IMG/VR virus record: IMGVR_UViG_3300037466_003234
Length of the DNA: 64,000 nt
Reading direction: 5' to 3' (one strand)
Source of the DNA: a virus
Taxonomy: Duplodnaviria; Heunggongvirae; Uroviricota; Caudoviricetes
Shown here: in pieces, positions 6,399 to 63,753 of the stretch
How the letters are laid out: every line of letters begins with the position of its first letter
Position numbering within the stretch: the stretch's first letter is position 1
Notes under the pieces: generated by a model
Database searches by the model: none
What the model was told of the DNA's origin: nothing
The model's input: the letters and a program-made list of their open reading frames with translations, nothing else
Made by a program: the position numbers and the translations under genes

Positions 6399-6449
6399 GC
6401 TTAGAGAATATCTGACTAAAGAAATAAGCGCAATAAGAAAAATAAGGAA

Positions 6450-6995: not shown

Positions 6996-7136
6996 CGTCA
7001 AACATCAGTAGGGCGTAAAAACATGTGCCTGCCATCAAACCTAAGAAAGCGTTTGTTGAAGGATGTTCGCAGTAATTACCTGCGGAAGAAAGTAAGAAGC
7101 AATAGGCGCAGAGCCATTTAAGGAACCTCTTTAGCT

Positions 7137-7328
7137 TTAGCACTCTTCGCACCTATCGCAGATATATCCCATCGGCATGACGACGTGCCCATTATGGCTC
7201 ATCAGCTCGAACGGCTGATCGCCGCAGGCAGCGCACTGAACCGGATGGTCATCGAAGTGCGTGCGCGGAAGGTTACTGTAAATTAACGAAAGGAGTTCTT
7301 CTTTTGAGAGTTCTGAGATCTTTTTCAT
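7137..7328 (-). CDS. small zinc-finger protein
   Basis: CAACGD...CDRCEEC Cys pairs. Confidence 0.45.
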   Translation of the reverse strand: MKKISELSKEELLSLIYSNLPRTHFDDHPVQCAACGDQPFELMSHNGHVVMPMGYICDRCEEC

Positions 7329-20333: not shown

Positions 20334-20366
20334 ATGCCGCTCCTTGCAAAGGGAGCGGCATTTTTC
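20334..20366 (+). terminator. intrinsic terminator
   Basis: ATGCCGCTCC-loop-GGAGCGGCAT then TTTTTCATTT. Confidence 0.6.
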
Positions 20367-20433
20367 ATTTATAACATTTGATTTTGCCATATTCCCATGG
20401 TACGCGCTCAACAAATACGCTTTGGGGGAGACA

Positions 20434-20772
20434 ATGAAAGATATTCTGATTATTGAGGAGGACCAGGCCATTAGAGAGGTTCTAGGTCTTTATTGTAATC
20501 ACTGCAGGCAAAATTGCATATGTGTGTGTAATATTGGCGAGGGATTTAAGGAGCTAGAAAAGAAAAATCCATCCCTTATTCTGCTAGATCTAAGTTACCA
20601 TACCGAAAACCTACCAGAATTTATCCGTAAGGCCAGACAATCGGTCTCTAATCCTCGTATTTTTATAATGAGCGCCATGAATGGCGCCGAAGAAATTGCA
20701 AGAAATAATGATGTAAGCTTCATTGCAAAACCTTTTCATCTTGATTTGATTGAGAAAATCATTTGCGAATAA
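20434..20772 (+). CDS. stand-alone response-regulator receiver (REC/CheY-like) domain protein with Cys-rich insertion
   Basis: ILIIEED...LILLDLS...IFIMSA...FIAKPF matches REC acidic pocket, phospho-acceptor Asp, S/T and Lys. CNHCRQNCICVCN inserted after beta1. GGGGAGA SD. Confidence 0.7.
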   Translation: MKDILIIEEDQAIREVLGLYCNHCRQNCICVCNIGEGFKELEKKNPSLILLDLSYHTENLPEFIRKARQSVSNPRIFIMSAMNGAEEIARNNDVSFIAKPFHLDLIEKIICE

Positions 20773-22776: not shown

Positions 22777-22827
22777 TTGACGGAATTAACGGATAACAAT
22801 AGACTGAAATTAACGGAAGGGAATAAT

Positions 22828-24879
22828 ATGAAACTCGCAAGCCATAACAATAAACTGGAAACGAACATTCAAGACGCTGAAACCCAAAACTTCGGAATTG
22901 GTGATGCAAGCGTTGTCATTGAAATTCTGCGGAACCGGCTCTATGAACACAAGATCCAAACGCTTGTTCAAGAATATATCTGCAATGCTCGCGACGCAAT
23001 GCGTGAATGCGGCAAGGCTAACGAATTCGAAGTGACTTGCCCTACCTCTTTGAGCCCTGTTTTTAAGGTGCGTGACTTCGGTCCTGGCATCTCCCCTGAT
23101 CGCATGGCTAACGTCTTCATCAAGTACGGCGCTAGCACTAAGCGTGACTCTAATAATCAGACTGGCGGCTTCGGCATTGGCGCTAAAAGCGCTTGGAGCT
23201 ACACCGATAGCTTCACGATTGTGACCTATATTGACGGTAACAAGCGCACCTATGTCGCGCATACCGGAGTCAACAATAACGGACGCCTGGACCTTTTGAG
23301 CACTGCTGCTACCTCGGAACCAAATGGAACCGAAATTCAAGTTCCTGTCGGTCGCTATGACCTTGACGAATTCCGCAGAGCTATCTATCGCGCTGTTTAC
23401 TTCTGGGAGTCTCGCCCAACCCTTAAGGGCGGAAACCACGAGTTGCCTACGCTTGTTGGCGGCGAGCGCATTAGCGATCTCGTCGAAGTGATCGATTATA
23501 AGATGCTCCCTGCCTTCTTGAACGTTGATTACTACGACAACATGCTTGCCGTGATCGATGGCGTGCCATACATGATCACCTCCAAACTCATGGATAAAGT
23601 CAAAAAGCTTAAAGATCTCAAGCAATTGACCAAACGATTCATTGTATTGCACTTTGGAAATGGTCTTGTGGAAGTCTCTGCAAGCCGCGAGTCTATCGCT
23701 GACTCAAAGGCTACAGTCGAAGGCCTGGAAAAACTTGCAGCGCAGGGGGTAGTGGCAATTAAAACCAAGATCTCCAGCGACTTTTCAAAAGTGAAATCTA
23801 GCTCGGATTTCTTTAAGACCTACCTTGCAATGGAACCATACTTCCATGTGGACAAGCTTGCTAAGTATGACGTTTATCAAATCGATGGAGGCTATGTTAA
23901 AGCTGACCTGCTCCATAAGGTTTCGTTGACTCGCATGCATATGTGGGGAAGAAATAGCCGCGTCCAGGTCGATCGCATCACCAAAGAGCAATTCGATCAA
24001 AGACAAAAGCAAAATGGCATTCGTCTTCAATACCTGAATAACGTTTACTTTCTTCGCGCATCTGAAAACGCTATTATCCAAAATAAGCGTCTGCGCGAAA
24101 ACATTGGCCCTAACTTGCCAGAAGTGCTCTTGATCGAGCAACTGGGCGATAACTCTGCGGAATTTGAGAAGTTAATTTTGGATCTGAATGCTAAAGACTT
24201 CCAAACGCTGACCTACGTAGAAAAGCCAAGGGCTCCGCGTGTTAAGATCGAGCGCGATAAGCAAGAATTCTGCATCCATCAATTCTTGGGTGTAAGACAT
24301 CACTATACAAGTCTGGCAGATAACACAGATAAGTGGCTCTATATCCCAATGAGCGGCGGCAGTCTTACAAACTTCTCAAATGTGGACCTTAAAGACGTAG
24401 CTTATTTCGTTAAAGAAACTACTGGACTTATCGTCTGCGGGCTCTCTGAGAACGTTGTGGAGAAGGTGAAAGATAACGCAAATTTCTTGCCATTCTCCGA
24501 ATGGATCGCAAAATTTAAACCTACCGACAAACAAATGGCTTATGTTAAAATGATGGAAGGCAAGAATACCAGTGTCATGTCGATCCTTTCTAAGCTGAAA
24601 GGTCTTAAGGATAAGTTTATTCTTGAAATGATTGAGGAATATAAGGGTGCAGTGAGAAACGATTTTTCTGGCGATCCGGTCCCTAAAATGTTCCTTGAGC
24701 TTATCAAGAACAGTGAAGAATATAAGGAATTCGTCAACAAAGACGGTAAGTTGAAAGATCTTATTGGAAGCAAATATAGACTTCTGAGCATGCTCGATGA
24801 CTACTATTTTTCCAAATCGACAAAATACGCTGAAGAAATCGTTATTTATATGAACGCTAAACACAAGGCTAAGGCTTAA
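22828..24879 (+). CDS. rIIA: rIIA-like protein (GHKL/HATPase_c N-terminal domain)
   Basis: ATG with GGAAGGGAA SD (the track start is a TTG). N-box EYICNARDAM, G1 VRDFGPGIS, G2 GGFGIGAKS. About 680 aa, immediately upstream of rIIB. Confidence 0.8.
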   Translation: MKLASHNNKLETNIQDAETQNFGIGDASVVIEILRNRLYEHKIQTLVQEYICNARDAMRECGKANEFEVTCPTSLSPVFKVRDFGPGISPDRMANVFIKYGASTKRDSNNQTGGFGIGAKSAWSYTDSFTIVTYIDGNKRTYVAHTGVNNNGRLDLLSTAATSEPNGTEIQVPVGRYDLDEFRRAIYRAVYFWESRPTLKGGNHELPTLVGGERISDLVEVIDYKMLPAFLNVDYYDNMLAVIDGVPYMITSKLMDKVKKLKDLKQLTKRFIVLHFGNGLVEVSASRESIADSKATVEGLEKLAAQGVVAIKTKISSDFSKVKSSSDFFKTYLAMEPYFHVDKLAKYDVYQIDGGYVKADLLHKVSLTRMHMWGRNSRVQVDRITKEQFDQRQKQNGIRLQYLNNVYFLRASENAIIQNKRLRENIGPNLPEVLLIEQLGDNSAEFEKLILDLNAKDFQTLTYVEKPRAPRVKIERDKQEFCIHQFLGVRHHYTSLADNTDKWLYIPMSGGSLTNFSNVDLKDVAYFVKETTGLIVCGLSENVVEKVKDNANFLPFSEWIAKFKPTDKQMAYVKMMEGKNTSVMSILSKLKGLKDKFILEMIEEYKGAVRNDFSGDPVPKMFLELIKNSEEYKEFVNKDGKLKDLIGSKYRLLSMLDDYYFSKSTKYAEEIVIYMNAKHKAKA

Positions 24880-26097: not shown

Positions 26098-26307
26098 ATG
26101 AAGGTCTTGAAAAGATTCAAAGAGGGCGACGCGATTCCAGAGGGTGCTAAGTTCATCTCCAAAGAACAGGTCAAAGATGACATGCCTTACAGGTTCTCGT
26201 CGGAGGTCGTCTCCAGCGGATTTTTCTTTGAGAGAACCAGGACTTATGCGCATTACCATGTGAGAACATATTATATCTATGAGGTAGAAGATGATCACAC
26301 TTCCTAA
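26098..26307 (+). CDS. hypothetical small protein
   Basis: Identical GAGGAGTGAATTTTATG context (MKVLKRF...). Confidence 0.5.
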   Translation: MKVLKRFKEGDAIPEGAKFISKEQVKDDMPYRFSSEVVSSGFFFERTRTYAHYHVRTYYIYEVEDDHTS

Positions 26308-26740
26308 CGATAACCGCATCGGTGGCGCTCATGGTAGCTATGTAAAATTGAGCCCATCTCTTGGCGTGAAGATTATTCATTCTGTCAAGTTTAATAATAT
26401 CGCCAAGGCTTATCGTAGTGGAGCTTATAGGAACGCGCTGAGAGAAGCTTATATCCTTAACGTTGCATTTGAGAGCGGCGTCGTTCCCCGCTGCTATGGA
26501 GTCACATTGGTTCGAGTTAAAAAAGGATATAGGGTGGGGGTGCTTATGCAACACCTCGGAAGTACACCACTTTTCGAAAGTGAATTTTGTGACAAATTTT
26601 CCGAAGCTTTCGACGAAATTAATGATAGATTAATTGAGCTAGGGATTGTTCATAACGATATACACGATGAGAATGTTATGGTCTATCGTGGCAAATTCTA
26701 CGTGATTGATTTTTCGCCCGACTGCGTTAAAATGAAATAA
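26291..26740 (+). CDS. small protein-kinase-like (APH/Kdo-kinase-like) protein
   Basis: IVHNDIHDENVMV resembles the HxDxxxxN catalytic loop. YVIDFS resembles DFG/IDW. GAGGTAGAAG SD. Confidence 0.5.
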   Translation: MITLPNDNRIGGAHGSYVKLSPSLGVKIIHSVKFNNIAKAYRSGAYRNALREAYILNVAFESGVVPRCYGVTLVRVKKGYRVGVLMQHLGSTPLFESEFCDKFSEAFDEINDRLIELGIVHNDIHDENVMVYRGKFYVIDFSPDCVKMK

Positions 26741-42822: not shown

Positions 42823-44964
42823 TTACCCAGCGTTTTGCTGAACCTGCGAGAGGCTGATTGCAATTGGGATGAAGTACACGCTGGTTGCGAGCTTCGCTTC
42901 CACAGAAACATCCATCTCTGGTCCAGAGATCGATACTTTTGCGTTCTTGAATCCGAGCGGAGCGTCGTCAGAAGCCGCAGTCATCTTTAGCTTCTTATAT
43001 CCGTCAAACTTCTGAGCCAAGAAAGCTAGTGCGGTAGCAGCGTCAACGTCTGCCAAGGACTTACCGACGAAAGCCTTTTGGAAGCTGTCAGCGAGGTCGA
43101 GGGCAAGGATGTCTGCCAAGTACACAGCCTGGATGCTGTTGTAGACGAAGTTAGTGTCGAAGCCGTAAGTGGTTTGGTCAGAAACCCAACGATTTCCTGC
43201 TGCATCCTTAGTGAGGATGAGGAGGCCAGCGTCGAGTGCGTCTTCAACGTCGCCAGGGCTACCAGAGTCGAGACCGCTTGGGTCAACGAAGCTAATAACG
43301 TTTGCGAACTTGTTGGTGATGGACTTATAGAATCCACCAGCTTGCATACCTGCTGCGACTGCAGCGCCGTACCAAGGCATGAACGTAACGACGTTACCGG
43401 AAGCGTCTACTTGGGAAACCTTTTGGCATGTTAGAGATGCGCGGTAGTTTGCCAAGGATTGAGAAGCTGCCTTAACGTTCGAAAAGCTATCCCAGATGGA
43501 GAGCATTGCGATACGATTGCGCTTGAGCTTAGGCGTGCTGTATTGGATGCAGTGAGACTTAACGATCGCGTGAATTGCCGAGATCGTGTAAGCCGAAGTG
43601 CTGTCCGTGAGGCCATCAGCGATGTCGTCAGCAGCGTCGCGGCTGAAGAGTGGAACGATGATGTTGCACTGAATACCAGCAAGCTGGTTAACAGCGTTAA
43701 CGATATCGTTTGCCGAGGTAGCGCCACGAGCGCCGCCAGCAAGGTAGGCTGGAGCAGACATAACGCCTGGGAGACCTGCCTTAGCGGTAGCAACGAACTC
43801 CACAGCGTGGGAGGTAGCCATTGCCTTCTTGAATGCTGCCATAGCGCTCTTCACGCGGCCTGCCTTAGCTGCTGGAGAAGCGATTCCGATTGCGGAAACT
43901 TCGTCAAGAGCCGAAGGAGCTTGCTGCTGAGCTTTAGCGGAAGCAGAAGCGCTGTATCCAGGCTGAGAAGCGATGTAAGATGCTAGGTCTGCGATCGTGC
44001 GGAACTGGCTCATGTCGATGCTGAGGTTAGAACCTGATCCACCGGTAACCGTCGTGGAGAGGGTTCCAGAAGCGATCGAAAGAGTTGCAGTCGTGCCAGC
44101 ATAACCAACCATGAGGGCAACTTCTGCGTTAACATCGATCGTTTCGCTGAGGCCGGTATCTGGACGAGAGATAGCGACTTCAACGCCTGGCTCTTGAGCG
44201 GAAACAACGAGTCCAGCCGAAAGGCCGAGAGCAGCGAGATCGCCAGCTTGAGCGTCAATGAGTTCAAACGACTTGCCCCAACCCTTACGGTTAGCGGAAG
44301 CGTCAACTGCAACCGTTAGCTTGATGCTATTGGATGCCGTTCCTGGTGCGGCGGTGATGCCAGCAGGAAGTTGAGCATTAAGTTCGGTGCAAAGAGCAGC
44401 GACCGTATTGTGGTCCGAAGACGTGGTGCTGAGGGTAACGGTTGTCTTAGCGCCGCCGTTCAAGCGAACGTCGAACGTTAGACCGTTAAGAGCAGATCCA
44501 AGGGCTGCGATCGTGTCACCGCTAACGGTAGGAGCAGATTCAGCAGCGATTTGGGTGATTTGGAACTTATACTTGTTTCCAGACTTACCAACGTTCTGAT
44601 CTTTGAAGGTACCGAAGTCGCTATCAACGATAGCGGAAGCCTTGGTGCCTTGGTTCGTCTTAACGATGTAGACGAGGTTAGCAGATCCGCTGATGTCAGC
44701 GTCGCTCGATGGAGCAGAAAGAGCGCGGAAAGCGTCTACGATCTGGCCGCTCTGATAAGCCTGGGTGACTTTATCGAGCTGGTCAGGGGTGAATGCGTTG
44801 TCCTTGAGGGCAACTTCTTGGTAGCTGGCGCCGCCATCGGCTTCACCGATAATAACGACAATACCAGAAGCTCCAAGACCTACTGGGTTACTTTTAACAG
44901 TAACGTTAGGATAAGCACCTGGAATATTGGTGTTTACAAAGCTTGTAACTAGTCTTTGAGACAT
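42823..44964 (-). CDS. contractile tail sheath protein
   Basis: 713 aa. N-terminus NIPGAYPNVTV...GIVVIIGEADGG and C-terminus NRWVSDQTTYGFDTNFVYNSIQAVYLADILALDLADSFQKAFVGK resemble the sheath N/C domains. Followed by the tube gene. Confidence 0.75.
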   Translation of the reverse strand: MSQRLVTSFVNTNIPGAYPNVTVKSNPVGLGASGIVVIIGEADGGASYQEVALKDNAFTPDQLDKVTQAYQSGQIVDAFRALSAPSSDADISGSANLVYIVKTNQGTKASAIVDSDFGTFKDQNVGKSGNKYKFQITQIAAESAPTVSGDTIAALGSALNGLTFDVRLNGGAKTTVTLSTTSSDHNTVAALCTELNAQLPAGITAAPGTASNSIKLTVAVDASANRKGWGKSFELIDAQAGDLAALGLSAGLVVSAQEPGVEVAISRPDTGLSETIDVNAEVALMVGYAGTTATLSIASGTLSTTVTGGSGSNLSIDMSQFRTIADLASYIASQPGYSASASAKAQQQAPSALDEVSAIGIASPAAKAGRVKSAMAAFKKAMATSHAVEFVATAKAGLPGVMSAPAYLAGGARGATSANDIVNAVNQLAGIQCNIIVPLFSRDAADDIADGLTDSTSAYTISAIHAIVKSHCIQYSTPKLKRNRIAMLSIWDSFSNVKAASQSLANYRASLTCQKVSQVDASGNVVTFMPWYGAAVAAGMQAGGFYKSITNKFANVISFVDPSGLDSGSPGDVEDALDAGLLILTKDAAGNRWVSDQTTYGFDTNFVYNSIQAVYLADILALDLADSFQKAFVGKSLADVDAATALAFLAQKFDGYKKLKMTAASDDAPLGFKNAKVSISGPEMDVSVEAKLATSVYFIPIAISLSQVQQNAG

Positions 44965-47900: not shown

Positions 47901-49190
47901 TTACTGCTGTGGGGATTCCGCAGCGTCCTCCTGGGCCGCTGCAGGAGGAGCGGCAGGCGTTTCAGCTTGCTGCCCTGGCTGTTCCGTTGGATCGGCTGGA
48001 GTTTCTTCGGATGGTCCAAGGCCTAGCATCTTTGCCATTTCAATCATGGCCTTAAGCATCATGATCGAAGCTTGATATAGCTGCGGCGCTTGTTCTTTTG
48101 CGCGTTCGAGAATGTCTTTGCTTTGCTTAAAGCCATCAAGGGCTTCGGACACCATTCCAACTACTTTTTCGCGTGCGATCTGATCTGCGTGCTGATCAAG
48201 TCCACCTTGGAGAACTTGCGTGAGATCTGGACCTTGACCTTGATCTTCTTCAGAAAGGCCCATGTCCGCAGGAACGTTTTCTTGGTCTCCTGGGAGCGCC
48301 TGCCCATTCACTGGAAGGGCAGCGTCATCTGACATCGGATCTACTGGAGCTTCTTGATCAAAATGTTGCAGAATATTCTGCATAGCTTGAGCAGTCTCAG
48401 GATCATCTTGTTCTGATCCTTCTGCTGATCCGACGGCTGTGGGGTCTTGCCCAGCAGCGACTTTAGCGTCGTACTCAGCGCAGTGGGGGCAGTCACAACT
48501 GTCTGCACCACCGCGTTCGTCGTATTCTTTACAGTATGGGCAATTGTCGTGATCGTGTTCTTCGCTATTTCCTTCAGCTTGCTTAGCATCGTATTCCTTA
48601 CAATATGGGCAGTCATCGCCGCATGCATGTCCGTCAGCGCCATCCATTTCTGCGCAATAAGGACAATCGTGATGATCATCAGCCGGAGCCGGTTGATCGG
48701 TTGTGGTTTGAACGTCGTCTGATTTTTGTTCTGGAGTCATGTAAGCTTCTCCTAGTTTCTTTTGTTCGGCAGAAGCGTCATCTGCTCCAAGGCTTGATTG
48801 GGCTAGCGCATAGTCCTGCTCTACACTGTCGTCGTAGTTAACGACTTGGTCTTTGCCGCGAAGTTTTCCGACCATGAGGGATTTGCCAGCCTGAGAAAGG
48901 TCTTGTCCAACGCCGACAGTCATGGTTAGGCCTGTCGCGAACTGATAGTCTTTGCGAAGTTCTTCAATGTGGTCCATGGCTTGAGGAGGAACCTGAAAGG
49001 TGCCTTCGTCGCCACCGCCAGAAATGCGGGTTCCGCCCATTTCAGCTACCCAGCGGGTAACGATTTCATGGCCGAGATCAATGCGCTGAGAGGCCTCGCT
49101 GAGACCTTGTGCGTCGTTTGCTAAAATTGCTCTTCCGACCAAACGACCGGCGTTGTCGCCGTCGTAGGCCATAATTAACATGTTATCCAC
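47901..49190 (-). CDS. acidic virion-module protein with N-terminal DxD...GGDE palm-like motif and four CPxC zinc-knuckle repeats
   Basis: IMAYDGDNAG...ISGGGDEGTFQV at residues about 7-62. DCPYCAEMD / DCPYCKEYD / NCPYCKEYD / DCPHCAEYD repeats. Long acidic tail. Confidence 0.55.
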   Translation of the reverse strand: MDNMLIMAYDGDNAGRLVGRAILANDAQGLSEASQRIDLGHEIVTRWVAEMGGTRISGGGDEGTFQVPPQAMDHIEELRKDYQFATGLTMTVGVGQDLSQAGKSLMVGKLRGKDQVVNYDDSVEQDYALAQSSLGADDASAEQKKLGEAYMTPEQKSDDVQTTTDQPAPADDHHDCPYCAEMDGADGHACGDDCPYCKEYDAKQAEGNSEEHDHDNCPYCKEYDERGGADSCDCPHCAEYDAKVAAGQDPTAVGSAEGSEQDDPETAQAMQNILQHFDQEAPVDPMSDDAALPVNGQALPGDQENVPADMGLSEEDQGQGPDLTQVLQGGLDQHADQIAREKVVGMVSEALDGFKQSKDILERAKEQAPQLYQASIMMLKAMIEMAKMLGLGPSEETPADPTEQPGQQAETPAAPPAAAQEDAAESPQQ

Positions 49191-55431: not shown

Positions 55432-55472
55432 GGGGCCAGTAGCCGACGATGCTGGCCCCTATTCATTTTCTA
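55432..55472. terminator. hairpin between convergent genes (bidirectional terminator candidate)
   Basis: AGGGGCCAG-loop12-CTGGCCCCT then ATTCATTTTCT. Confidence 0.45.
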
Positions 55473-56136
55473 CGTAATATTCGCCATCTTCCGATTTAAC
55501 GATTTTCTTTGGATTTCCTTCGGTCGGTAAATACTGACCGTCCAAAACCGCCGCATTTACCCATACTTTGCCGTCTTTGTAGGTATAGCCGCGAGACTCG
55601 TGAATGTGACCAAAGATATGGAGTTTCACATTGGTCTCCATGATCCTCTTATAGAGGGCTGGGCAGCCAACGTTTTTATTTTGATGTGGAATAAAATCTA
55701 GGCGATCCCAAGCGGGGCCATGGGTAATAAGGATTTCGGTATCCTCTGGGATCATATCCCAGTGGGGTTGAATTTCGATCTGATTGCGATTAAATGCCCA
55801 ATTGCAGAATTCTGGCTGAACAGGCGAACCCCAGATCTTAATTCCTTCGATTTCGATTCCGCTATCGTTAAGGAGTATGATCCCGCGATTCTTGCACTCG
55901 TCTGCGCAGAGGCTTGGATTTTCCTCAAAGAGCCAGTCGTGGTTGCCTGGAACGAATATCTTATGCTTGTAATTCTGTTTGGCATACCAGTCCAAAAAGT
56001 TCATTACTTCGCTAACTCTGCCGCCAAGGGTGGCGTCGCCAGCGTGAATAAGAATGTCTCCGCCAGGCATGGTAAATTTGTTATGCCTATTATGGGTGTC
56101 CGAAATAGCGTGAATTTTGATACCTTCTAAACTCAT
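55459..56136 (-). CDS. calcineurin-like metallophosphoesterase
   Basis: HAISDTHNRH, HAGDATLGG and VPGNHDW (GDxHG / GDxxDRG / GNH[DE]). Also ITHGPAW and GHIHE. Confidence 0.7.
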   Translation of the reverse strand: MSLEGIKIHAISDTHNRHNKFTMPGGDILIHAGDATLGGRVSEVMNFLDWYAKQNYKHKIFVPGNHDWLFEENPSLCADECKNRGIILLNDSGIEIEGIKIWGSPVQPEFCNWAFNRNQIEIQPHWDMIPEDTEILITHGPAWDRLDFIPHQNKNVGCPALYKRIMETNVKLHIFGHIHESRGYTYKDGKVWVNAAVLDGQYLPTEGNPKKIVKSEDGEYYVENE

Positions 56137-56270: not shown

Positions 56271-57653
56271 TTAGTGGAGTTGGCCAGTGATGTTCTCGAT
56301 GAGAACATTCTTGCGAGGCTGATAAACAGCCAAGCTGAGGAAGCGGAAGTGCGCTTCTGGGAGCGACAAATCGCTAACAGCGAGCTTGAGCTTGCTGTAT
56401 GGAGCGAGTTGAGCGAGGCCCATCGTGTTTGCTTGGACCAAGAATCCGGTGACCGAGCCTGGAGCGCGGTTGCCGAGGTCGGTGAACACTGGGTTGCCAG
56501 CGCCTTGAGCAACGCGACCGATGAACTTAGCAGAAGCAGCGCTTCCACCAACGTCAGAGCGGTAAACGTTGTAATACTTAGCCTGAGCAACAGCGCCGAT
56601 CGTGACCGTGATCTTGTGCTGAGCAGCGATCGTTACAGATCCAGCAGCCGAAGGCATGGACTCACCGCGTTCGTTGCAAGCCGTAGCGTAGTACGTGAAT
56701 GCGCCGGCAGCGAGGAGGGTTCCTGCGGCACCTGCGTCAGCAACCGTGATCGAAGGAGCAGCTGGGCTGCCAGAACGAGCGCGGGCTGGGCGGGTCTTAC
56801 CAGACAAGAAGCGAGAAGCTTCTAGGCTGACAACTGCGCTGGAGGTCCACTGAGTGCGGAGGTGAGCGCCGGTTGATTCTTGAGCAGATCCAGCAAGAAC
56901 GATACGCTCCTTAGCGTGTGCGATCTTGTTGTATGCAGACAAGCTGATTGGGTCGAGCATGAGCTTGTCAGCTGCGCCCATGTTCATTGCAGAACGAACT
57001 GCAGCGTCTTCGATGATGGATTGCGAGAGCGTTCCACCAGCAGAGAGGACGACGGTTTGGTCAGAGCCAAACTCAGCGAACATAAGGTCTTGGGTGTTCG
57101 ACTGAGCGTCCGATTGACGAACTTGCTGGTCGAGACCGATCATGTTAGGAACCTTAGCAGCTGCCAATGGGTTACCATCGAACACACCTGCGTTGGAGTA
57201 GTCAGATTGACCACGGAAGCAGTCGAACTCGATGTCGCCAGCGAGCTTCATAGCTGCATCGCTAGCTGCGCGGTCTTCAGCCTTTTGGCCGTCGAACGTG
57301 CCGATCAAGTTAGCGGCAACGGTGACACGACGAGTCGTGCTGTAGTATGCCATAGGCACCACTGCACGAACGTAGTTCGAGGTTTCTTCTTCCCCGATAC
57401 CACCTTCATACTGTGCCGATCCACCAAAGATACCGTAGTCTAGCTGACGGTTGAATTGGTGAAGCTGGGACTTAACGTCCTTAGAAGGGATCATCTTCTG
57501 AAGCTTAATGTGTTGGTCTTCGAAAGTGACGTTGTGCATAACAGGGGAAAGGTCTTCCACCATTAGCGCAGCGCCTTGGGCTAGTTGGCCTGGAGCAGCA
57601 TTATAAGAACCTGCTTCCAAAGCTTTCATGAGTGATTGTAGTTGCTCAATCAT
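56271..57653 (-). CDS. major capsid protein (HK97-fold type)
   Basis: 460 aa immediately downstream of a scaffold-like gene. Ala/Gly/Ser/Thr-rich capsid-like composition. Confidence 0.6.
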   Translation of the reverse strand: MIEQLQSLMKALEAGSYNAAPGQLAQGAALMVEDLSPVMHNVTFEDQHIKLQKMIPSKDVKSQLHQFNRQLDYGIFGGSAQYEGGIGEEETSNYVRAVVPMAYYSTTRRVTVAANLIGTFDGQKAEDRAASDAAMKLAGDIEFDCFRGQSDYSNAGVFDGNPLAAAKVPNMIGLDQQVRQSDAQSNTQDLMFAEFGSDQTVVLSAGGTLSQSIIEDAAVRSAMNMGAADKLMLDPISLSAYNKIAHAKERIVLAGSAQESTGAHLRTQWTSSAVVSLEASRFLSGKTRPARARSGSPAAPSITVADAGAAGTLLAAGAFTYYATACNERGESMPSAAGSVTIAAQHKITVTIGAVAQAKYYNVYRSDVGGSAASAKFIGRVAQGAGNPVFTDLGNRAPGSVTGFLVQANTMGLAQLAPYSKLKLAVSDLSLPEAHFRFLSLAVYQPRKNVLIENITGQLH

Positions 57654-59250: not shown

Positions 59251-60753
59251 ATGGCCACATTCATTCACGGCATTGCCGCATCAGAAAATATCGATTCCTC
59301 TGGCGAAGTAGTTTCCATCGTCGGTATGGATATTTCTTCACTAGACAAGACTGGCGTGTTCAATTGGGAGCACGATCAGGCCACAGGTCCGAATGGCGAG
59401 AAATTAACGATTAAGCTACCTTCCAATGTTGTAGGTAAGATCTTGAAAGCAAAGAAGATCTTTTCCGAACAAGACTGTGAAGATGAGCACCAGCTTTATT
59501 TCTGGAATAAGATCAAAACCCCATACCTTTACGTTATGGGCGAACTTTTGGACGATTATAAGGATTCTGCCAAGGAAGTAGCTGGAATGTTCCGCTATGA
59601 CGCAGATAGGCAGAATCAAAATGAACACGACATTATTGGTTTTTCGATCGAAGGCAATAACCTCAAAAAAGAGGGAATGACCATTACCCGCTCGATCGCC
59701 CGAAAATTAACGATCACAACCGGCCCTTGCAATAAAGCTTGTGTGGCCGAAATAATGCCTGATCAGGGTGAAAGTCAGATTAAAGACGATATTGATAGCA
59801 TCTTCAAATCCGAAGAAAGCTTTGATATTCAACTATTTAAGTCTGACAAGCTTGATCAGATGTACGAAGACTTCTTGGCCAAGAAAGAGGAAGCCATGAA
59901 TAAAGCAGATCCAAAAACCCTCAATGGCCCAGCTAAGGCACCGATGGCGCCTATGGCTCCTGCCCAGACCACGACCGCCGGTCGAGTCCATGGTTGGCAT
60001 GCTTCTATTAGCCAGCATAGCGGTGGAACTAACGTTAATTTCGAACATCCGCAGCATGGCATGGTCACGGTTCATAAGAATCCTGAGTCCAATCACTACG
60101 AAGTAAAGCATAATGGCGCTCACGCAGGTCTTATGGGTCACAAAGGTATTCATCCAGATGCCGCCTCTGCCGTAGCCCACGCTAAAAACTACATCCAAGC
60201 AGTTAACTCCGGCAAGGTAGCAGGCAAACGCATGATGAACGTTAATTCCAATATGGGAATTGACAAAAAACCTGTCGCCAAGGCCGATACCGCTGGATCT
60301 GCCAACGTAGCTCCATCACAATTAACAGGCACCGCAGCCCTCGCCAAAGAAGATCTTGATAAGGCAGACGCAGGTGTTTACAATCAAAAAGGAGTTCACC
60401 TTCCTCCTTTGAGCGATAAGAAGGGTGGAACCAGCGTAATGGGCACTCATGTCAGAAACCCTTCTAGTGCCGGAGCAGGATCTAAAGAGATGGCTCGCCG
60501 CCATGCTCAAAATGGCCTAAAACAGCTCAAAGAAATGCCTAAGCCGAAATTAACGAAGTCTGACTGGCTTGATCGTGCGGACGAAGCTTACCAAAACTGG
60601 GATAAAAAAGAACAATTTGAAGCATTTATGCATTCCCGCCTTCCGCACCTAGCTAAGGGTGAGGTTGAAGCTATCGGAAAAACGTTAGCGTTGAAAAAAT
60701 CCCTTGATTTCGAGGCCGCTTTAGGTAAACTGATTAAGAAACAAGAAGAATAA
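59251..60753 (+). CDS. prohead protease-like (HK97 U35/S78 family) N-terminal domain fused to long low-complexity C-terminal region
   Basis: N-terminus FIHGIAASENIDSSGEVVSIVGMD resembles the protease pattern G-Y-A-S...D..G-[DE]-V-V. Divergent from the capsid operon. Confidence 0.4.
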   Translation: MATFIHGIAASENIDSSGEVVSIVGMDISSLDKTGVFNWEHDQATGPNGEKLTIKLPSNVVGKILKAKKIFSEQDCEDEHQLYFWNKIKTPYLYVMGELLDDYKDSAKEVAGMFRYDADRQNQNEHDIIGFSIEGNNLKKEGMTITRSIARKLTITTGPCNKACVAEIMPDQGESQIKDDIDSIFKSEESFDIQLFKSDKLDQMYEDFLAKKEEAMNKADPKTLNGPAKAPMAPMAPAQTTTAGRVHGWHASISQHSGGTNVNFEHPQHGMVTVHKNPESNHYEVKHNGAHAGLMGHKGIHPDAASAVAHAKNYIQAVNSGKVAGKRMMNVNSNMGIDKKPVAKADTAGSANVAPSQLTGTAALAKEDLDKADAGVYNQKGVHLPPLSDKKGGTSVMGTHVRNPSSAGAGSKEMARRHAQNGLKQLKEMPKPKLTKSDWLDRADEAYQNWDKKEQFEAFMHSRLPHLAKGEVEAIGKTLALKKSLDFEAALGKLIKKQEE

Positions 60754-60838
60754 GAACATAGTGTTGTCATGTATTCCTTTTATGGGCCAGGGGTGGCAAA
60801 CCTCTGGCCCTTTTTGTTTATGATATATACGGTTCAAT

Positions 60839-60914
60839 GGGGTCGTAGCTCAGTTGGTAGAGCGGTAGCTTTGCAAGCTATAGGTCAAGGGTTCGAGTCC
60901 CTTCTTCTCCACCA
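60839..60914 (+). tRNA. tRNA-Ala (TGC) with imperfect acceptor stem
   Basis: D-arm GCTC-AGTTGGTA-GAGC. Anticodon loop TTTGCAA. T-arm AAGGG-TTCGAGT-CCCTT. CCA encoded. G3-U70 present; mismatches at 5-68 and 6-67. Confidence 0.6.
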
Positions 60915-60957
60915 AGTTTAATTTGCCGCTTGCGGGCGGGGCCTGCCGCAACAGGTC

Positions 60958-61029
60958 GCTATCGTCGTCTAGGGGCCTAGGATACCGTCATTTCGGGCGG
61001 AGACGCTGGTTCAAATCCAGCCGATAGCT
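60958..61029 (+). tRNA. tRNA-Glu-like gene with aberrant anticodon loop
   Basis: Acceptor GCTATCG/CGATAGC. D-arm TCGTCTAGGGGCCTAGGATA and T-arm GCTGG-TTCAAAT-CCAGC parallel E. coli tRNA-Glu. Anticodon region CCGTCATTTCGGGCGG is 1 nt short (6- or 8-nt loop). Confidence 0.4.
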
Positions 61030-61142
61030 ATTTTCTTGTTGTCTTATTTTCTTATCTGATATAATCTTATTTGTATAGCGATGCCGATTGATAGTGCAAA
61101 GCTAGAAATTAACACTCGTAGGAATATTACGAGGAGGACAAA

Positions 61143-61922
61143 ATGATTTATCTCAATGACCAACCGGTCAATACTACCATTTTCCCAGACAACACTTCTC
61201 AGGTCTGGAAGCTTCCCAAAGATATCTTTTTTAAATCCTATATTTCAATTAAATGGGCTTTTTCTAATGAAGGCGAGTTTTTACAGCTTGCTCAGCTAAA
61301 GCATCTTTTGAGTAATAAGTGCCAATACGGTCCATTTATCACTCTTACCTTAACCTATTTGCCATATGGCAGACAAGATAAGGAAGTTTGCAATGAGGCC
61401 ACTTTCGCCCTTCGCACTTTTGCCGCTCTGCTCAACACCTTGCAATTCGACTCTGTCATCATTCATGATCCTCACAGTAAAATTGCGCTGGATTTGATCA
61501 ATAATTCTCATGCAGTTTATCCAGAGAGAAAAATTTTAGACGCTAGAGTGGCCACAAATTCTCCGCTACTCTGCTATCCCGATAAGGGCGCTGTAAGTAA
61601 ATATTCTGAGACGTATCCTGGGTGGGATTACATTTACGGTCAAAAAGTCCGCGATCAATTGACTGGAAACATTACGCACTATGAGCTTATCGGTGATTGT
61701 GTCGGCCAAAACGTACTTATCGTGGACGATATCTGCGATGGCGGAATGACTTTTATTTTGCTTGCCAAAAGCTTGCTGGCAGCAGGTGCTAAAGAGGTAA
61801 ACCTTTTTGTCACCCATGGAATTTTCTCCAAAGGGACGAGAGTTCTATTTGAAGCAGGCATTAAACGCGTGTTTACCCAAGATGGTGAAGTCGGGCCACG
61901 CGAAACCTCAATTCAGTTCTAA
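61143..61922 (+). CDS. PRPP-synthetase-family pyrophosphokinase (candidate ADP-ribose pyrophosphokinase, Adps-like)
   Basis: VLIVDDICDGGMTFILLAKSLLAAGAKEVNLFVTHGIFS is the PRPP-binding / phosphoribosyltransferase motif. Directly upstream of a NAMPT-family gene. Confidence 0.7.
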   Translation: MIYLNDQPVNTTIFPDNTSQVWKLPKDIFFKSYISIKWAFSNEGEFLQLAQLKHLLSNKCQYGPFITLTLTYLPYGRQDKEVCNEATFALRTFAALLNTLQFDSVIIHDPHSKIALDLINNSHAVYPERKILDARVATNSPLLCYPDKGAVSKYSETYPGWDYIYGQKVRDQLTGNITHYELIGDCVGQNVLIVDDICDGGMTFILLAKSLLAAGAKEVNLFVTHGIFSKGTRVLFEAGIKRVFTQDGEVGPRETSIQF

Positions 61923-61936
61923 TTATAGGAGATTAT

Positions 61937-63397
61937 ATGAAGAACTTATCTGCAATGTTGTTGTGTGATTTTTATAAAATTAGCCATAGGGCTATGTATC
62001 CAGTGGGCACTGAAGTCGTTTATTCGACCTGGACGCCTCGCGCTTCTCGCATGAATGGAGTGGAAAAGGTCGTTGCCTTTGGCTTCCAAGCTTTCTTGAA
62101 AGAGCTTAACGAATATTTTGACGTTAATTTCTTCGGTAGAGATAAGGAAGAGGTTGTTTTTGAATATTCTCGTATTGTCAAACACACCTTAGGTGTCGAA
62201 AATCCTGAAACTAAGCATATCGAAGATTTGCATGATCTTGGATACCTGCCTTTGTCGATCAAGGCCCTCCCAGAAGGAACCTTGGTACCACTTCGCGTTC
62301 CAATGCTTACGATCCAAAACACCGACCCTCGCTTCTTCTGGCTCACCAACTACATTGAGACCTTGGCCTCATGCCAACTCTGGCAGCCTTGCACGTCGGC
62401 AACGATTGCACGCGAATATCGTCAGATCCTTGATAAATGGGCCATGAAGACCGTTGGAAATACTGATTTCGTTCCTTTCCAGGGCCACGACTTCTCTATG
62501 CGCGGCATGAGTTCGCTTGATTCAGCGATGCTCAGTGGCATGGGCCACCTCACCCAATTCGTTGGCACCGACACGATTCCTGCTATCCAGGTAGCTGAAA
62601 AGTATTATGGAGCTAATGTTCAGACGGAAATGGTAGGAACGTCAATTCCTGCAACGGAACACTCGATCCAATGTGCTTATGGTAACGACGTTGAATACTA
62701 CAAAAACATGATCAATCGCGTCCATCCAAGTGGCTTCGTATCGATCGTGTCTGACGGATACGACTTCTGGGATGTCATCACTCGCGTAATTCCTTCCTTG
62801 AAACGCGATATCTTGAAACGCGATGGTCGCGTTGTTGTTCGCCCTGACTCTGGAGATCCAGTTCTTATTGTTTGCGGTGATCCAAATGCTCCAGTTGGAA
62901 GCCCTGAATATAAGGGTGCAATTGAGTGTCTTTACGAAACTTTTGGTGGAACCGTCACTAAAGAAGGTTATAAAGTGCTCGATAGCCATATCGGCTTGAT
63001 TTACGGTGACGCTATTACCCTTCGCCGCGCAGAAGAGATCTGCGAGCGTTTGGCTGCCAAGAGATTTGCTTCGATTAATGTTGTGTTCGGTATCGGTTCT
63101 TATACGTACCAATACAATACTCGTGACACCTTCGGATTTGCCCTTAAGAGCACGCTCTGCGTGATTAACGGCGAAGAAAAGCATATCTTTAAAGACCCTA
63201 AGACCGATAACGGCATCAAAAAGAGCCAAAAAGGTCGCGTGGCCGTCTTGAAGGATGGTAAAGAAGGTCTTAAATTCGTTGACGGCCTTGGCCTTCAAGA
63301 TAACCTCGTTAGTGATCAGCTTGTCGAGATTTATCGTGACGGCGAAATCCTTAAAGAGTATACTTTCGAAGAGATTCGCGCTCGCCTGAAGGGCTAA
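61937..63397 (+). CDS. nicotinamide phosphoribosyltransferase family protein (NAMPT/NadV-like; candidate nicotinamide ADPR transferase, Namat-like)
   Basis: N-terminus LLCDFYKISH and overall about 486 aa are NAMPT-like. Adjacent to the Prs-like gene. Confidence 0.75.
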   Translation: MKNLSAMLLCDFYKISHRAMYPVGTEVVYSTWTPRASRMNGVEKVVAFGFQAFLKELNEYFDVNFFGRDKEEVVFEYSRIVKHTLGVENPETKHIEDLHDLGYLPLSIKALPEGTLVPLRVPMLTIQNTDPRFFWLTNYIETLASCQLWQPCTSATIAREYRQILDKWAMKTVGNTDFVPFQGHDFSMRGMSSLDSAMLSGMGHLTQFVGTDTIPAIQVAEKYYGANVQTEMVGTSIPATEHSIQCAYGNDVEYYKNMINRVHPSGFVSIVSDGYDFWDVITRVIPSLKRDILKRDGRVVVRPDSGDPVLIVCGDPNAPVGSPEYKGAIECLYETFGGTVTKEGYKVLDSHIGLIYGDAITLRRAEEICERLAAKRFASINVVFGIGSYTYQYNTRDTFGFALKSTLCVINGEEKHIFKDPKTDNGIKKSQKGRVAVLKDGKEGLKFVDGLGLQDNLVSDQLVEIYRDGEILKEYTFEEIRARLKG

Positions 63398-63447: not shown

Positions 63448-63471
63448 GCGGGGAGAGACCCGCACATTTTT
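63448..63471 (+). terminator. weak intrinsic terminator
   Basis: GCGGG-gagaga-CCCGC then ACATTTTTA. Confidence 0.35.
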
Positions 63472-63513: not shown

Positions 63514-63753
63514 ATGAGTGGTGAGGATGGCCTGCTGGCTACTTTTATGACTGAATTGCTTATATCCCTAGCTTTAGCGTCTTGCCCGGCTACGCAAATG
63601 ATCAATAAGACAGCGTATCCATGGAACGATAACGATAAGCAGACGATGAAATACTGTCAGAGAAGGTGCTCAGACTACTACCCCGACGCGCCCTGTCTTA
63701 AACAGTTCATCAAGTGGAATAAGCAAGACTATCACTGTCTTTGTGGCATTTAA
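63514..63753 (+). CDS. Cys-rich small protein
   Basis: GGAGGG SD inside a CCACC/GGTGG stem. MKYCQRRCSDYYPDAPC...CLCG. Confidence 0.45.
   Translation: MSGEDGLLATFMTELLISLALASCPATQMINKTAYPWNDNDKQTMKYCQRRCSDYYPDAPCLKQFIKWNKQDYHCLCGI

What the first reader, a model, noticed from the sequence alone, without database searches (positions are those of the whole stretch)
61143..63397. Adjacent PRPP-synthetase-like and NAMPT-like genes: a NARP1-type NAD+ reconstitution (anti-defence) module
A Prs-family pyrophosphokinase (PRPP-binding loop VLIVDDICDGGMTF) sits immediately upstream of a NAMPT-family gene, both on the plus strand. This pairing matches the two-enzyme pathway recently described in phages. 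In that pathway ADP-ribose is pyrophosphorylated (Adps) and then condensed with nicotinamide (Namat) to rebuild NAD+. Phages use it to survive NAD+-depleting defence systems such as Thoeris, DSR, SEFIR and some CBASS effectors. The identity of the two enzymes as Adps/Namat rather than housekeeping Prs/NadV is inferred from synteny only. A PPAT/NMNAT-family nucleotidyltransferase at 4089-4511 could provide an NMN adenylyltransferase step for a NARP2-like route.
Basis: partly seen in the sequence, partly recalled or inferred. Interest (0 to 1): 0.85.

Follow-up and report, generated by a model that had tools for sequence, protein, structure and literature searches.

The report
Phage NAD+ rebuilding gene pair (NARP1)
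This uncultured large phage carries the known two-enzyme pathway (NARP1: Adps plus Namat) that phages use to rebuild NAD+ after bacterial defences destroy it; it is an ordinary new example, with the oddity that the first gene alone has been swapped between two otherwise near-identical phages.

Summary
Two intact plus-strand ORFs lie 14 nt apart at 61143-61922 (259 aa, Prs-like) and 61937-63397 (486 aa, NAMPT-like), in a Myxococcus-phage-Mx1-like myovirus from a metagenome.

The NARP1 reading holds at sequence level, beyond synteny. The second protein is 61-62% identical to the crystallised SPbetaL1 Namat (PDB 9W5X/9W5W, 678 bits, against about 240 bits for canonical NAMPTs). It keeps all 19 published ligand contacts, the catalytic Arg and His, and the Namat-specific adenine clamp (SCL Arg38; SCH GSYTYQYNTRD).

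The first protein behaves like validated Adps enzymes. It scores 91 bits on the curated Prs model, where E. coli Prs scores 423. It is 28-34% identical to SPbetaL1, FADO and Bas63 Adps, keeps the catalytic Lys, and groups with SPbetaL1/FADO Adps at 97% bootstrap.

The gene at 4089-4511 is on the minus strand and is a CoaD-type phosphopantetheine adenylyltransferase.

Relatives carry a Macro (Adpp, NARP1-AP) gene, a NADAR gene, or both after namat. This phage does not.

One thing was unexpected. In a near-identical phage (0.9% nucleotide difference over 14 kb, Namat 99.6%), the interior of adps is replaced by an allele only 64% identical.

Verdict: a new member of a known kind. Activity is untested.

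The parts
61057..61065 (+). Possible extended -10 promoter element (TGATATAAT), 78 nt upstream of the adps start codon
   Evidence: Read directly from the sequence. The consensus scanner did not call a promoter here because no -35 hexamer matches. This is inference only.
61132..61137 (+). Shine-Dalgarno sequence (AGGAGG) of adps
   Evidence: Read from the sequence, 5 nt before the ATG at 61143.
61143..61922 (+). adps: ADP-ribose diphosphokinase (ADPR-PP synthetase), Prs-family, 259 aa
   Evidence: - ORF confirmed.
- phrog_619 scores 215 bits. TIGR01251 scores 91 bits, below its cut-off of 113, as for validated Adps (96-138 bits); E. coli Prs scores 423.
- 34%, 28% and 31% identical to SPbetaL1, FADO and Bas63 Adps, against 21% to E. 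coli Prs.
- The catalytic Lys (SPbetaL1 K162) aligns with K168.
- Groups with SPbetaL1/FADO Adps at 97% bootstrap.
- The AlphaFold model (pLDDT 92.8) has the Prs two-domain fold.
- 68 of 259 positions are at least 97% conserved in 120 homologues.
61196..61864 (+). Interior tract of adps that is replaced by a divergent allele in the near-identical phage IMGVR_UViG_3300037423_001736
   Evidence: Nucleotide alignment with L016/L020. 37.4% of adps columns differ, against 0.9% over the other 14.4 kb. The first ~55 nt and last ~30 nt of the gene are conserved. The Adps/Namat divergence ratio is 88, against 0.9-1.8 in 35 other pairs.
61713..61754 (+). Ribose-phosphate (PRPP-type) binding loop of Adps, VLIVDDICDGGMTF
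   Evidence: Motif located. D195, D196, G201 and T203 are invariant in the lineage and shared with validated Adps and with Prs.
61927..61931 (+). Shine-Dalgarno sequence (AGGAG) of namat, in the 14-nt gap after adps
   Evidence: Read from the sequence.
61937..63397 (+). namat: nicotinamide ADP-ribose transferase, NAMPT-family, 486 aa
   Evidence: - ORF confirmed.
- PDB 9W5X/9W5W (SPbetaL1 Namat) score 678 bits, against about 240 bits for human, mouse and Xcc NAMPT.
- 61.4% identical to SPbetaL1 Namat, 59.7% to FADO, 46% to Bas63 and 37% to Xcc Nampt.
- All 19 published NAM, NMN and AMP contact residues are conserved. The one change, F392 to Y, is the residue Bas63 has.
- R302 corresponds to the catalytic R306. 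The catalytic His242 sits in ATEHS.
62033..62059 (+). Namat selectivity-clamp loop (SCL), TPRASRMNG, with the adenine-stacking Arg38
   Evidence: Aligns with SPbetaL1 TPRTSRVED (R40). The loop is shorter and lacks this residue in Xcc Nampt. Its role is defined in PMC12774641.
63095..63127 (+). Namat selectivity-clamp helix (SCH) signature, GSYTYQYNTRD
   Evidence: Fits the published Namat-only consensus GS-X-Phi1-X-Phi2-X-Phi3-TRD. SPbetaL1 has GSFTYQYNTRD, whereas Xcc Nampt has GGALLQKVDRD.
63448..63463 (+). Terminator-like hairpin (GCGGGGAGAGACCCGC followed by a T-rich tail), 51 nt after the namat stop codon
   Evidence: Consensus scan. It is only a pattern match: 7 were found against 3.3 expected in the region.

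Best explanation
The two genes form a core NARP1 operon in an uncultured, roughly 171-kb, Mx1-like myovirus.

Proposed mechanism. When an NAD+-depleting defence system (Thoeris, DSR1/2, SIR2-HerA, SEFIR, Kongming, SPARSA and the like) cleaves NAD+ into ADP-ribose and nicotinamide, two steps follow:
1. Adps (61143-61922) uses ATP to transfer a diphosphate onto the 1''-OH of ADP-ribose, giving ADPR-PP.
2. Namat (61937-63397) displaces the diphosphate with nicotinamide, giving NAD+ directly. Its adenine clamp (Arg38, Tyr389, Tyr393, Thr395, Asp397) selects ADPR-PP over PRPP.

The two enzymes act in sequence without a stable complex. That fits the finding that adps alone has been exchanged for a 64%-identical allele in a sister phage while namat stayed 99.6% identical.

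What is shown here: the gene pair, its family and clade membership, and conservation of the catalytic and specificity residues.

What is inferred from the characterised homologues (SPbetaL1, Bas63, FADO): the substrates, the products and the anti-defence role.
For: - Namat: PDB 9W5X/9W5W, the SPbetaL1 Namat crystal structures, score 678 bits, against about 240 bits for canonical NAMPTs. It is 61% identical to SPbetaL1 Namat. All 19 ligand contacts, the catalytic Arg and His, and the SCL Arg are conserved. The SCH motif GSYTYQYNTRD matches the published Namat-only signature.
- Adps scores: TIGR01251 91 bits and phrog_619 215 bits. This mirrors the validated Adps proteins SPbetaL1 (106/248), FADO (96.5/246) and Bas63 (138.5/333). 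It is opposite to E. coli Prs (423/193).
- Adps identity: 28-34% to each validated Adps, as much as these share with one another (26-29% between Bas63 and the two Bacillus-phage proteins), and 21% to E. coli Prs.
- The catalytic Lys is conserved.
- The bipartition {window lineage + SPbetaL1/FADO Adps} has 97% bootstrap.
- Canonical Prs proteins from E. coli, human and archaea score at least 120 bits against each other. The window protein scores at most 55 bits to any of them.
- Synteny: the adps-then-namat order on one strand is seen in SPbetaL1, FADO, Bas63, four other cultured phages and five metagenomic relatives. In the literature, 97% of Adps-clade genes have an adjacent Namat.
- Operon-like layout: 14-nt gap, two Shine-Dalgarno sequences, a terminator-like hairpin after namat.
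- Purifying selection: 68 of 259 Adps positions are at least 97% conserved in 120 homologues. Namat shows 32 nucleotide but only 2 amino-acid differences from the sister phage.
Against: - No biochemical or genetic test has been done on these proteins.
- Adps is only 28-34% identical to the validated enzymes.
- No residue set is known that distinguishes ADPR from ribose-5-phosphate specificity. Several residues shared by all the Adps proteins are also present in archaeal class III Prs (4twb).
- My small NJ tree gives only weak support (46%) for all Adps proteins being separate from the archaeal Prs fragment.
- In place of the F-x-x-G-E ATP-binding 'flag' motif of Prs and validated Adps, the lineage has FPDNT.
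- Namat enzymes keep PRPP-dependent NMN synthesis in vitro, so some NMN production cannot be excluded.
- The host and its defence systems are unknown.
Confidence: 0.88

Rival explanations
1. Ordinary auxiliary NAD+ salvage. The first enzyme is a true PRPP synthetase and the second a true nicotinamide phosphoribosyltransferase (NadV). Together they make NMN, which host NadR or NadD-type enzymes turn into NAD+.
For: This is what the Pfam, PHROG and source annotations say. The model has the Prs fold. All Prs-family catalytic motifs are present. Namat enzymes can still use PRPP in vitro.
Against: - The same annotations were shown to be wrong for Bas63 and SPbetaL1. SPbetaL1 Adps gave no product in the assay for Prs activity, and Namat made only NAD+ when given both substrates.
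- The window's second enzyme has the ADPR-PP adenine clamp that NAMPTs lack.
- The first scores 91 bits on the curated Prs model, where a real Prs scores 423, and it groups with validated Adps.
Confidence: 0.06
2. A NARP2-like route. The NAMPT-like enzyme makes NMN and the nucleotidyltransferase at 4089-4511 adenylates it to NAD+.
For: The 140-aa protein belongs to the same nucleotidyltransferase superfamily as NMNAT (PF01467). It has weak N-terminal hits to NMNAT models.
Against: - It passes the CoaD equivalog cut-off (108 vs 103 bits). It is far below every NMNAT cut-off (16-24 bits, against 112-409).
- All 34 of its PDB hits are phosphopantetheine adenylyltransferases, and it has the PPAT motif RGLR..DFE.E.
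- It is on the opposite strand, 57 kb away, overlapping a DUF3307-like membrane-protein gene.
- NARP2 Nampts form a clade separate from Adps-associated Namats, and no phage was found with both pathways.
- The window enzyme is of the Namat type.
Confidence: 0.02
3. The extended pathway NARP1-AP (Adps, Namat and the Macro-domain ADPR-1''-phosphate phosphatase Adpp), which also defeats aRES-type defence.
For: Relatives of this lineage carry a Macro-domain gene right after namat, in some also a NADAR gene (L008, L009, L010). L017 carries NADAR only. About 15% of NARP1 phages have Adpp.
Against: - In the window, namat is followed by 350 nt with only a small 79-aa ORF, then a minus-strand Peptidase_M15-like gene.
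- tblastn with the relatives' Macro and NADAR proteins finds nothing in the 64 kb.
- The sister phage L016 also lacks them.
- The remaining ~107 kb of the genome were not seen.
Confidence: 0.04

Closest known systems
NARP1 of Bacillus phage SPbetaL1 (Adps WIT26982.1 / Namat WIT26983.1; Osterman et al. 2024, bioRxiv 10.1101/2024.02.11.579819; Namat structures 9W5X/9W5W, PMC12774641)
   Same: - Same two-gene order and strand.
- Namat is 61% identical, with identical ligand-contact residues, the SCL Arg and the SCH motif.
- Adps has the same catalytic Lys and is the sister group in the tree.
   Different: - Adps is only 34% identical and 13 aa shorter.
- FPDNT replaces the FPNGE flag motif.
- The phosphate-binding loop is DDICDGGMT (as in Bas63) rather than DDLSSFGGT.
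- The host lineage differs: an Mx1-like myovirus rather than a Spbetavirus.
NARP1 of Escherichia phage Bas63 (JohannRWettstein, genes 79-80) and Bacillus phage FADO, both validated by deletion
   Same: Same operon architecture. Namat Tyr at the F392 position and the Adps loop DDICDGG.T are shared with Bas63.
   Different: Bas63 Namat is 593 aa, with about 100 extra residues inserted between the positions aligning with SPbetaL1 D308 and G360, and is 46% identical. Bas63 and FADO use Lys rather than Arg at the SCL position.
NARP1-AP (Adps + Adpp Macro phosphatase + Namat; Vibrio phage Gary; bioRxiv 10.64898/2026.01.28.702374)
   Same: Same core enzymes. Lineage relatives L008, L009 and L010 have a Macro gene after namat.
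   Different: No Macro gene at this locus or anywhere in the 64-kb window.
NARP2 (Nampt + Nmnat, Vibrio phage KVP40) and NARP3 (PnuC-like + NadR-like, Bas30)
   Same: Same overall purpose, restoring NAD+. NARP2's Nampt is a homologue of Namat.
   Different: There is no NMNAT, NadR or PnuC homologue. The CoaD-like gene is a PPAT, and its neighbour is DUF3307-like, not PnuC. The window enzyme carries the ADPR-PP clamp that Nampts lack.
Canonical PRPP synthetase (Prs; e.g. E. coli Prs, human PRPS1, archaeal class III Prs)
   Same: Same two-domain fold (TM about 0.75). Same catalytic motifs: RxD, His, PDxG, Lys/Arg flexible loop, DD..G.T.
   Different: - 20-23% identity.
- It lacks the first ~25 residues and the last ~35 residues of class I Prs.
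- It fails every curated Prs cut-off.

Membership tests
Namat (nicotinamide ADP-ribose transferase, NARP1) | NAMPT-family catalytic core: NAM-stacking Phe and Tyr', Asp215, Arg306, catalytic His | tested here: met
   F186, Y13, D212, R302 and H242 (in ATEHS) all align with the SPbetaL1 residues. NAPRTase and NAMPT_N Pfam hits.
Namat (nicotinamide ADP-ribose transferase, NARP1) | [quoted passage not shown] | tested here: met
   GSYTYQYNTRD at aa 387-397. Xcc Nampt has GGALLQKVDRD.
Namat (nicotinamide ADP-ribose transferase, NARP1) | SCL loop supplying a stacking residue (third residue Arg, Lys or Tyr) | tested here: met
   TPRASR, with R38 aligned to SPbetaL1 R40. The loop is shorter in Xcc Nampt.
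Namat (nicotinamide ADP-ribose transferase, NARP1) | Closer to characterised Namat than to Nampt | tested here: met
   678 bits to 9W5X/9W5W, against 233-250 bits to all NAMPT structures. 61% vs 37% identity.
Namat (nicotinamide ADP-ribose transferase, NARP1) | Preference for ADPR-PP over PRPP, producing NAD+ directly | not testable with these tools
   Needs an enzyme assay.
Adps (ADPR-PP synthetase, NARP1) | Prs-family fold and diphosphokinase catalytic residues, including the Lys equivalent to SPbetaL1 K162 | tested here: met
   K168 aligns with K162. RxD, H111, PDxG, R170 and DD..G.T are invariant in the lineage. The model matches Prs structures at TM about 0.75.
Adps (ADPR-PP synthetase, NARP1) | Membership of the phage Adps clade, separate from cellular Prs | tested here: met
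   - Groups with SPbetaL1/FADO Adps at 97% bootstrap, nested between them and the Bas63 group.
- Its profile-score pattern (TIGR01251 91 bits, phrog_619 215 bits) is like validated Adps and opposite to E. coli Prs.
- Caveat: a small NJ tree with only three Prs outgroups, two of them fragments.
Adps (ADPR-PP synthetase, NARP1) | Namat homologue in the immediate vicinity (97% of clade members) | tested here: met
   namat starts 14 nt downstream on the same strand. The same holds in all 12 related loci examined.
Adps (ADPR-PP synthetase, NARP1) | Uses ADP-ribose, not ribose-5-phosphate, as the diphosphate acceptor | not testable with these tools
   No sequence determinant of this specificity is known, and no Adps structure is in the PDB.
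NARP1 as an anti-defence system | Restores NAD+ and rescues phage from NAD+-depleting defence systems | not testable with these tools
   Needs infection or co-expression assays.
Canonical PRPP synthetase (Prs) | Reaches the curated NCBIfam Prs cut-offs | tested here: not met
   The best hit is TIGR01251 at 91.2 bits, against a cut-off of 113. All equivalog models score 27-77 bits, against cut-offs of 296-536. E. coli Prs scores 423-533.
NARP2 (Nampt + Nmnat) | An NMN adenylyltransferase encoded by the phage | tested here: not met
   The only candidate (4089-4511, minus strand) is a CoaD-type PPAT. A Pfam sweep of 1-31 kb found no NMNAT, Nudix or NadR domain. The 31-59 kb stretch was not swept with Pfam, and the rest of the genome was not seen.
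NARP1-AP | A Macro-domain Adpp gene within two genes of the NARP1 pair | tested here: not met
   No Macro or NADAR similarity in the window. The downstream neighbours are a 79-aa ORF and a Peptidase_M15-like gene.

The most novel reading that the evidence does not exclude
Adps, but not Namat, is a target of cassette-like allele exchange or diversifying selection in this phage population. Two phages differ by 0.9% elsewhere yet carry adps alleles that are 36% divergent at the protein level, with the breakpoints inside the gene. This could mean that hosts possess counter-measures aimed specifically at Adps, such as inhibitors or altered NAD+ breakdown products like the ADPR-1''-phosphate made by aRES. 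It could also mean that the alleles differ in acceptor specificity. Either way the first NARP1 step would be a new front in the NAD+ arms race.
Probability: 0.15. Interest if true: 0.6.

Novelty: new member of a known kind. Interest (0 to 1): 0.3.

Why it matters
NARP1 is an established and common phage counter-defence, reported in about 4.3% of sequenced phages. Another instance changes little in itself. It does three things:
- It extends NARP1 to a large uncultured lineage of ~155-171-kb Mx1-like phages. Thousands of homologues in metagenomes are labelled only 'ribose-phosphate pyrophosphokinase' and 'nicotinamide phosphoribosyltransferase'.
- It shows that the published Namat clamp signature can be used to re-annotate such genes with confidence.
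- It gives a natural experiment. The adps-only allele swap beside an unchanged namat shows that the two enzymes are modular and need not co-evolve. That agrees with the report that they form no stable complex. It also raises the question of whether Adps is under diversifying pressure.

Tried and rejected
- Megablast of the locus against 50,697 phage records found no match, so the phage is novel at DNA level.
- 9KE8/9KEO, the second-best PDB match at 540 bits, could not be identified. No paper cites it, and its source is not in the phage collection, where the best match is 59% to SPbetaL1. I did not use it as evidence.
- I looked for 'Adps-specific' residues (P74, P110/S112, A150, TGxI, F204) and dropped the idea. 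The archaeal class III Prs 4twb shares several of them.
- phrog_619 alone does not separate Adps from Prs, since E. coli Prs scores 193 bits on it. Only the combination with the curated Prs model is informative.
- I searched for Macro and NADAR genes (Adpp, AdfN-like) in the window and found none.
- I considered whether the CoaD-like gene and its neighbouring membrane-protein gene could be NARP3-like (NadR-like enzyme plus PnuC-like transporter). I rejected this: the first is a PPAT and the second is a weak DUF3307 match.
- Exact-sequence look-ups for the window's Adps, p500, RIIA and p79 found no contig. I therefore could not see the adps allele of the third, 100%-identical contig (L019).
- A scan of JGI metagenome contigs with a 30-mer from the tRNA-like element found nothing. 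IMG/VR returned only the L016 contig.
- Myxococcus phage Mx1 has no NARP1 beside its head genes. The rest of its genome was not checked.
Full report
**Observation.** They are 61143-61922 (259 aa) and 61937-63397 (486 aa), separated by 14 nt and each preceded by a Shine-Dalgarno sequence. The first hits Pfam Pribosyltran and Pribosyl_synth, and phrog_619 'ribose-phosphate pyrophosphokinase' at 215 bits. The second hits NAPRTase, NAMPT_N and phrog_448 at 669 bits. The quoted loop VLIVDDICDGGMTF is at aa 191-204.

**Genome context.** The window belongs to a phage. It has a tail sheath gene (42823-44964), a major head protein gene (56271-57653), an RIIA gene (22777-24879) and eight tRNA genes. It has no megablast match among 50,697 phage records.
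- The nearest cultured relative is Myxococcus phage Mx1 (169.6 kb), with 55% identity in the major capsid protein.
- Both proteins are recorded once each, on a 170,935-bp JGI contig, under the generic names 'ribose-phosphate pyrophosphokinase' and 'nicotinamide phosphoribosyltransferase'.
- Thousands of homologues exist in metagenomes, many on 155-171-kb contigs.
- The pair sits between terminator-like hairpins at 60784-60810 and 63448-63463. Between the first hairpin and adps lie a tRNA-Ala and a second tRNA-like gene.

**Is the second enzyme a Namat or a Nampt?** This can be tested, because Namat has been crystallised and its specificity determinants defined (PMC12774641).
- The window protein scores 678 bits against 9W5X/9W5W (SPbetaL1 Namat bound to NAM and to NAD+). 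It scores 233-250 bits against every human, mouse, rat or Xanthomonas NAMPT structure.
- It is 61.4% identical to SPbetaL1 Namat, 59.7% to FADO Namat, 46% to Bas63 Namat and 37% to Xcc Nampt.
- All 19 residues reported to contact NAD+ are conserved: D11, Y13, F186, S187, R189, D212, A239, R302, D304, G357, D358, A359, G387, S388, Y389, Y393, T395, R396, D397. The only change is F392 to Tyr, the residue Bas63 Namat has.
- The Namat-only SCH signature GS-X-Phi-X-Phi-X-Phi-TRD reads GSYTYQYNTRD here. Xcc Nampt has GGALLQKVDRD.
- The SCL loop supplies Arg38, equivalent to the adenine-stacking R40 of SPbetaL1.

Membership in Namat is therefore met on every feature that can be tested from sequence.

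**Is the first enzyme an Adps or a Prs?** No Adps structure or specificity motif is known, so the test is comparative. I fetched the three experimentally validated Adps proteins. SPbetaL1 was characterised in vitro, and Bas63 and FADO by deletion. I also fetched E. coli Prs.

| Protein | TIGR01251, curated Prs model (bits; cut-off 113) | phrog_619 (bits) |
|---|---|---|
| Window protein | 91 | 215 |
| SPbetaL1 Adps | 106 | 248 |
| FADO Adps | 96.5 | 246 |
| Bas63 Adps | 138.5 | 333 |
| E. coli Prs | 423 | 193 |

- The window protein is 34%, 28.5% and 31% identical to SPbetaL1, FADO and Bas63 Adps. This is as much as these share with each other (26-29% between Bas63 and the Bacillus-phage proteins). 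It is 21.5% identical to E. coli Prs.
- Canonical Prs proteins from bacteria, human and archaea all score at least 120 bits against E. coli Prs. The window protein scores at most 55 bits against any of them.
- The catalytic Lys whose mutation inactivates SPbetaL1 Adps (K162) aligns with K168.
- In a bootstrapped NJ tree, the window lineage groups with SPbetaL1/FADO Adps at 97%. That places it inside the span of validated Adps enzymes. Separation of all Adps proteins from the archaeal Prs fragment was weak (46%) in this small tree.
- An AlphaFold model (pLDDT 92.8) has the two-domain Prs fold, with TM about 0.75 to human, E. coli and archaeal Prs at 20-23% identity.
- In 120 homologues at about 60% identity, 68 of 259 positions are at least 97% conserved. 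These include all Prs-family catalytic motifs.
- Every related locus I examined has the adps-then-namat order. The literature reports this for 97% of Adps-clade genes.

**Mechanism.** By homology to the characterised system, Adps pyrophosphorylates ADP-ribose with ATP to give ADPR-PP. Namat then condenses ADPR-PP with nicotinamide to give NAD+. This reverses the damage done by NAD+-cleaving defences. The gene pair, its clade membership and the specificity residues are shown here. The substrates and the anti-defence effect are inferred.

The 140-aa protein at 4089-4511 (minus strand) exceeds the curated CoaD cut-off (TIGR01510, 108 vs 103 bits). It scores only 16-24 bits on NMNAT models whose cut-offs are 112-409. 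All 34 of its PDB matches are phosphopantetheine adenylyltransferases, and it has the PPAT motif RGLR..DFE.E. Its upstream neighbour is a weak DUF3307 membrane protein, not a PnuC, so the pair is not NARP3-like either. A Pfam sweep of 1-31 kb found no other NAD- or ADP-ribose-related domain.

**Accessory genes.** In relatives, namat is followed by other genes:
- a Macro-domain gene in L008;
- NADAR plus Macro in L009 and L010;
- NADAR plus a Ro60/TROVE gene in L017.

The Macro gene corresponds to Adpp of the recently described NARP1-AP pathway. Phage NADAR proteins are known anti-DarT factors. The window has neither gene. After namat come about 350 nt with a 79-aa ORF, then a minus-strand Peptidase_M15-like gene running off the window end. 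So this phage has the core pathway, and by the published logic it should remain sensitive to aRES-type defence.

**An unexpected finding.** The contig IMGVR_UViG_3300037423_001736 (170,122 bp; loci L016, L020, L022) is essentially the same phage.
- The MCP, the 294-aa and the 149-aa proteins are 100% identical. So is the 79-aa ORF over the 78 residues aligned. The 500-aa protein is 99.8% identical and Namat 99.6%.
- Adps, however, is only 63.6% identical.
- At nucleotide level, 37.4% of adps columns differ, against 0.9% over the other 14.4 kb. Most genes differ by 0-0.3%.
- The divergent tract (~61196-61864) lies inside the gene. The first ~55 nt and last ~30 nt are conserved. Divergence is mildly raised in the flanks, from about 60645 to 62071.
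- The Adps/Namat divergence ratio is 88 for this pair, against 0.9-1.8 for 35 other pairs of loci.
- Neither allele has a relative above 70% identity among the 120 best Adps homologues returned, so the donor is unknown.
- namat shows 32 nucleotide but only 2 amino-acid differences.
- A third contig (L019) is 100.000% identical to the window over 17.8 kb, but I could not retrieve its adps region.

The simplest reading is homologous recombination with a co-circulating relative. Whether selection on Adps drives such swaps is open. The swap does show that Adps and Namat are interchangeable modules, which fits the reported lack of a stable Adps-Namat complex.

**Verdict.** The NARP1 interpretation is supported at sequence level, and the NARP2 side idea is not. 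This is a new member of a known kind: a core NARP1 operon in an uncultured Mx1-like phage. Interest is modest. The adps-only allele replacement is the one feature worth following up.

Noticed in passing
window 61196-61864 vs L016 / L020 (IMGVR_UViG_3300037423_001736): The interior of adps is replaced by a 64%-identical allele in an otherwise near-identical phage (0.9% nucleotide difference over 14.4 kb; Namat 99.6% aa). The breakpoints lie inside the gene. Divergence is mildly raised in the flanks, from about 60645 to 62071.
   Followed up: yes
L008:2762-3253; L009/L010:8284-8772 and 8916-9359; L017:5064-5573 and 5693-7270: Relatives carry extra genes directly after namat: a Macro-domain gene (Adpp-like, NARP1-AP), a NADAR-domain gene (as in the anti-DarT factor AdfN), or both. 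One relative (L017) has a Ro60/TROVE+vWA gene after NADAR. This makes a small island of ADP-ribose-related genes that the window phage lacks.
   Followed up: partly
window 60958-61029 (+): A tRNA-family match (Rfam 42.5 bits, above the gathering score) just upstream of adps. By my reading its anticodon loop has 6 nt. ARAGORN reports a two-base anticodon 'tt' and assigns no amino acid. It is 100% conserved in the sister phage. It may be a degenerate or unusual tRNA.
   Followed up: partly
window 4089-4511 (-) and 4508-5011 (-): A phage-encoded CoaD-type phosphopantetheine adenylyltransferase. Its start overlaps by 4 nt the end of a DUF3307-like membrane-protein gene. Homologues in phages are few (57 of 50,697 records), and several of these are huge uncultured phages.
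   Followed up: partly
window 47901-49190 (-): A 429-aa protein inside the structural-gene block carries an mCpol (minimal CRISPR polymerase / nucleotide cyclase) Pfam hit in the precomputed annotation of an identical gene. Phage Mx1 has a gene annotated as 'nucleotide cyclase' near its head genes.
   Followed up: no
window 20344-20772 (+): A small ORF with a response-regulator receiver domain (PF00072, 31 bits), unusual in a phage. The same sweep also found GP88 (15350-16162), DUF932 (13863-14678), an HNH endonuclease (6450-7001) and a weak RIO-kinase-like ORF (26291-26740).
   Followed up: no
window ~63746-63750 vs L016:7599-7826: The window lacks about 229 nt that the sister phage has between the 79-aa ORF and the minus-strand peptidase-like gene. 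In L016 this stretch is part of a called 99-aa ORF.
   Followed up: no
window 55459-56136 (-): The Metallophos (calcineurin-like phosphoesterase) gene is the second most divergent gene between the two sister phages, at 3.4% nucleotide difference where neighbouring genes show 0-0.3%.
   Followed up: no
PHROG phrog_12872 (547-position profile): Both the Adps-like and the Namat-like proteins match different halves of this one profile (positions 77-221 and 374-535). This suggests that natural Adps-Namat fusion proteins exist in some phages.
   Followed up: no
PDB 9KE8 / 9KEO: An unpublished 495-aa 'nicotinamide phosphoribosyltransferase' structure is much closer to Namat (540 bits to the window protein) than to NAMPTs. 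Its SCH-equivalent motif is GAQTYQRNTRD. Its source organism could not be identified.
   Followed up: partly
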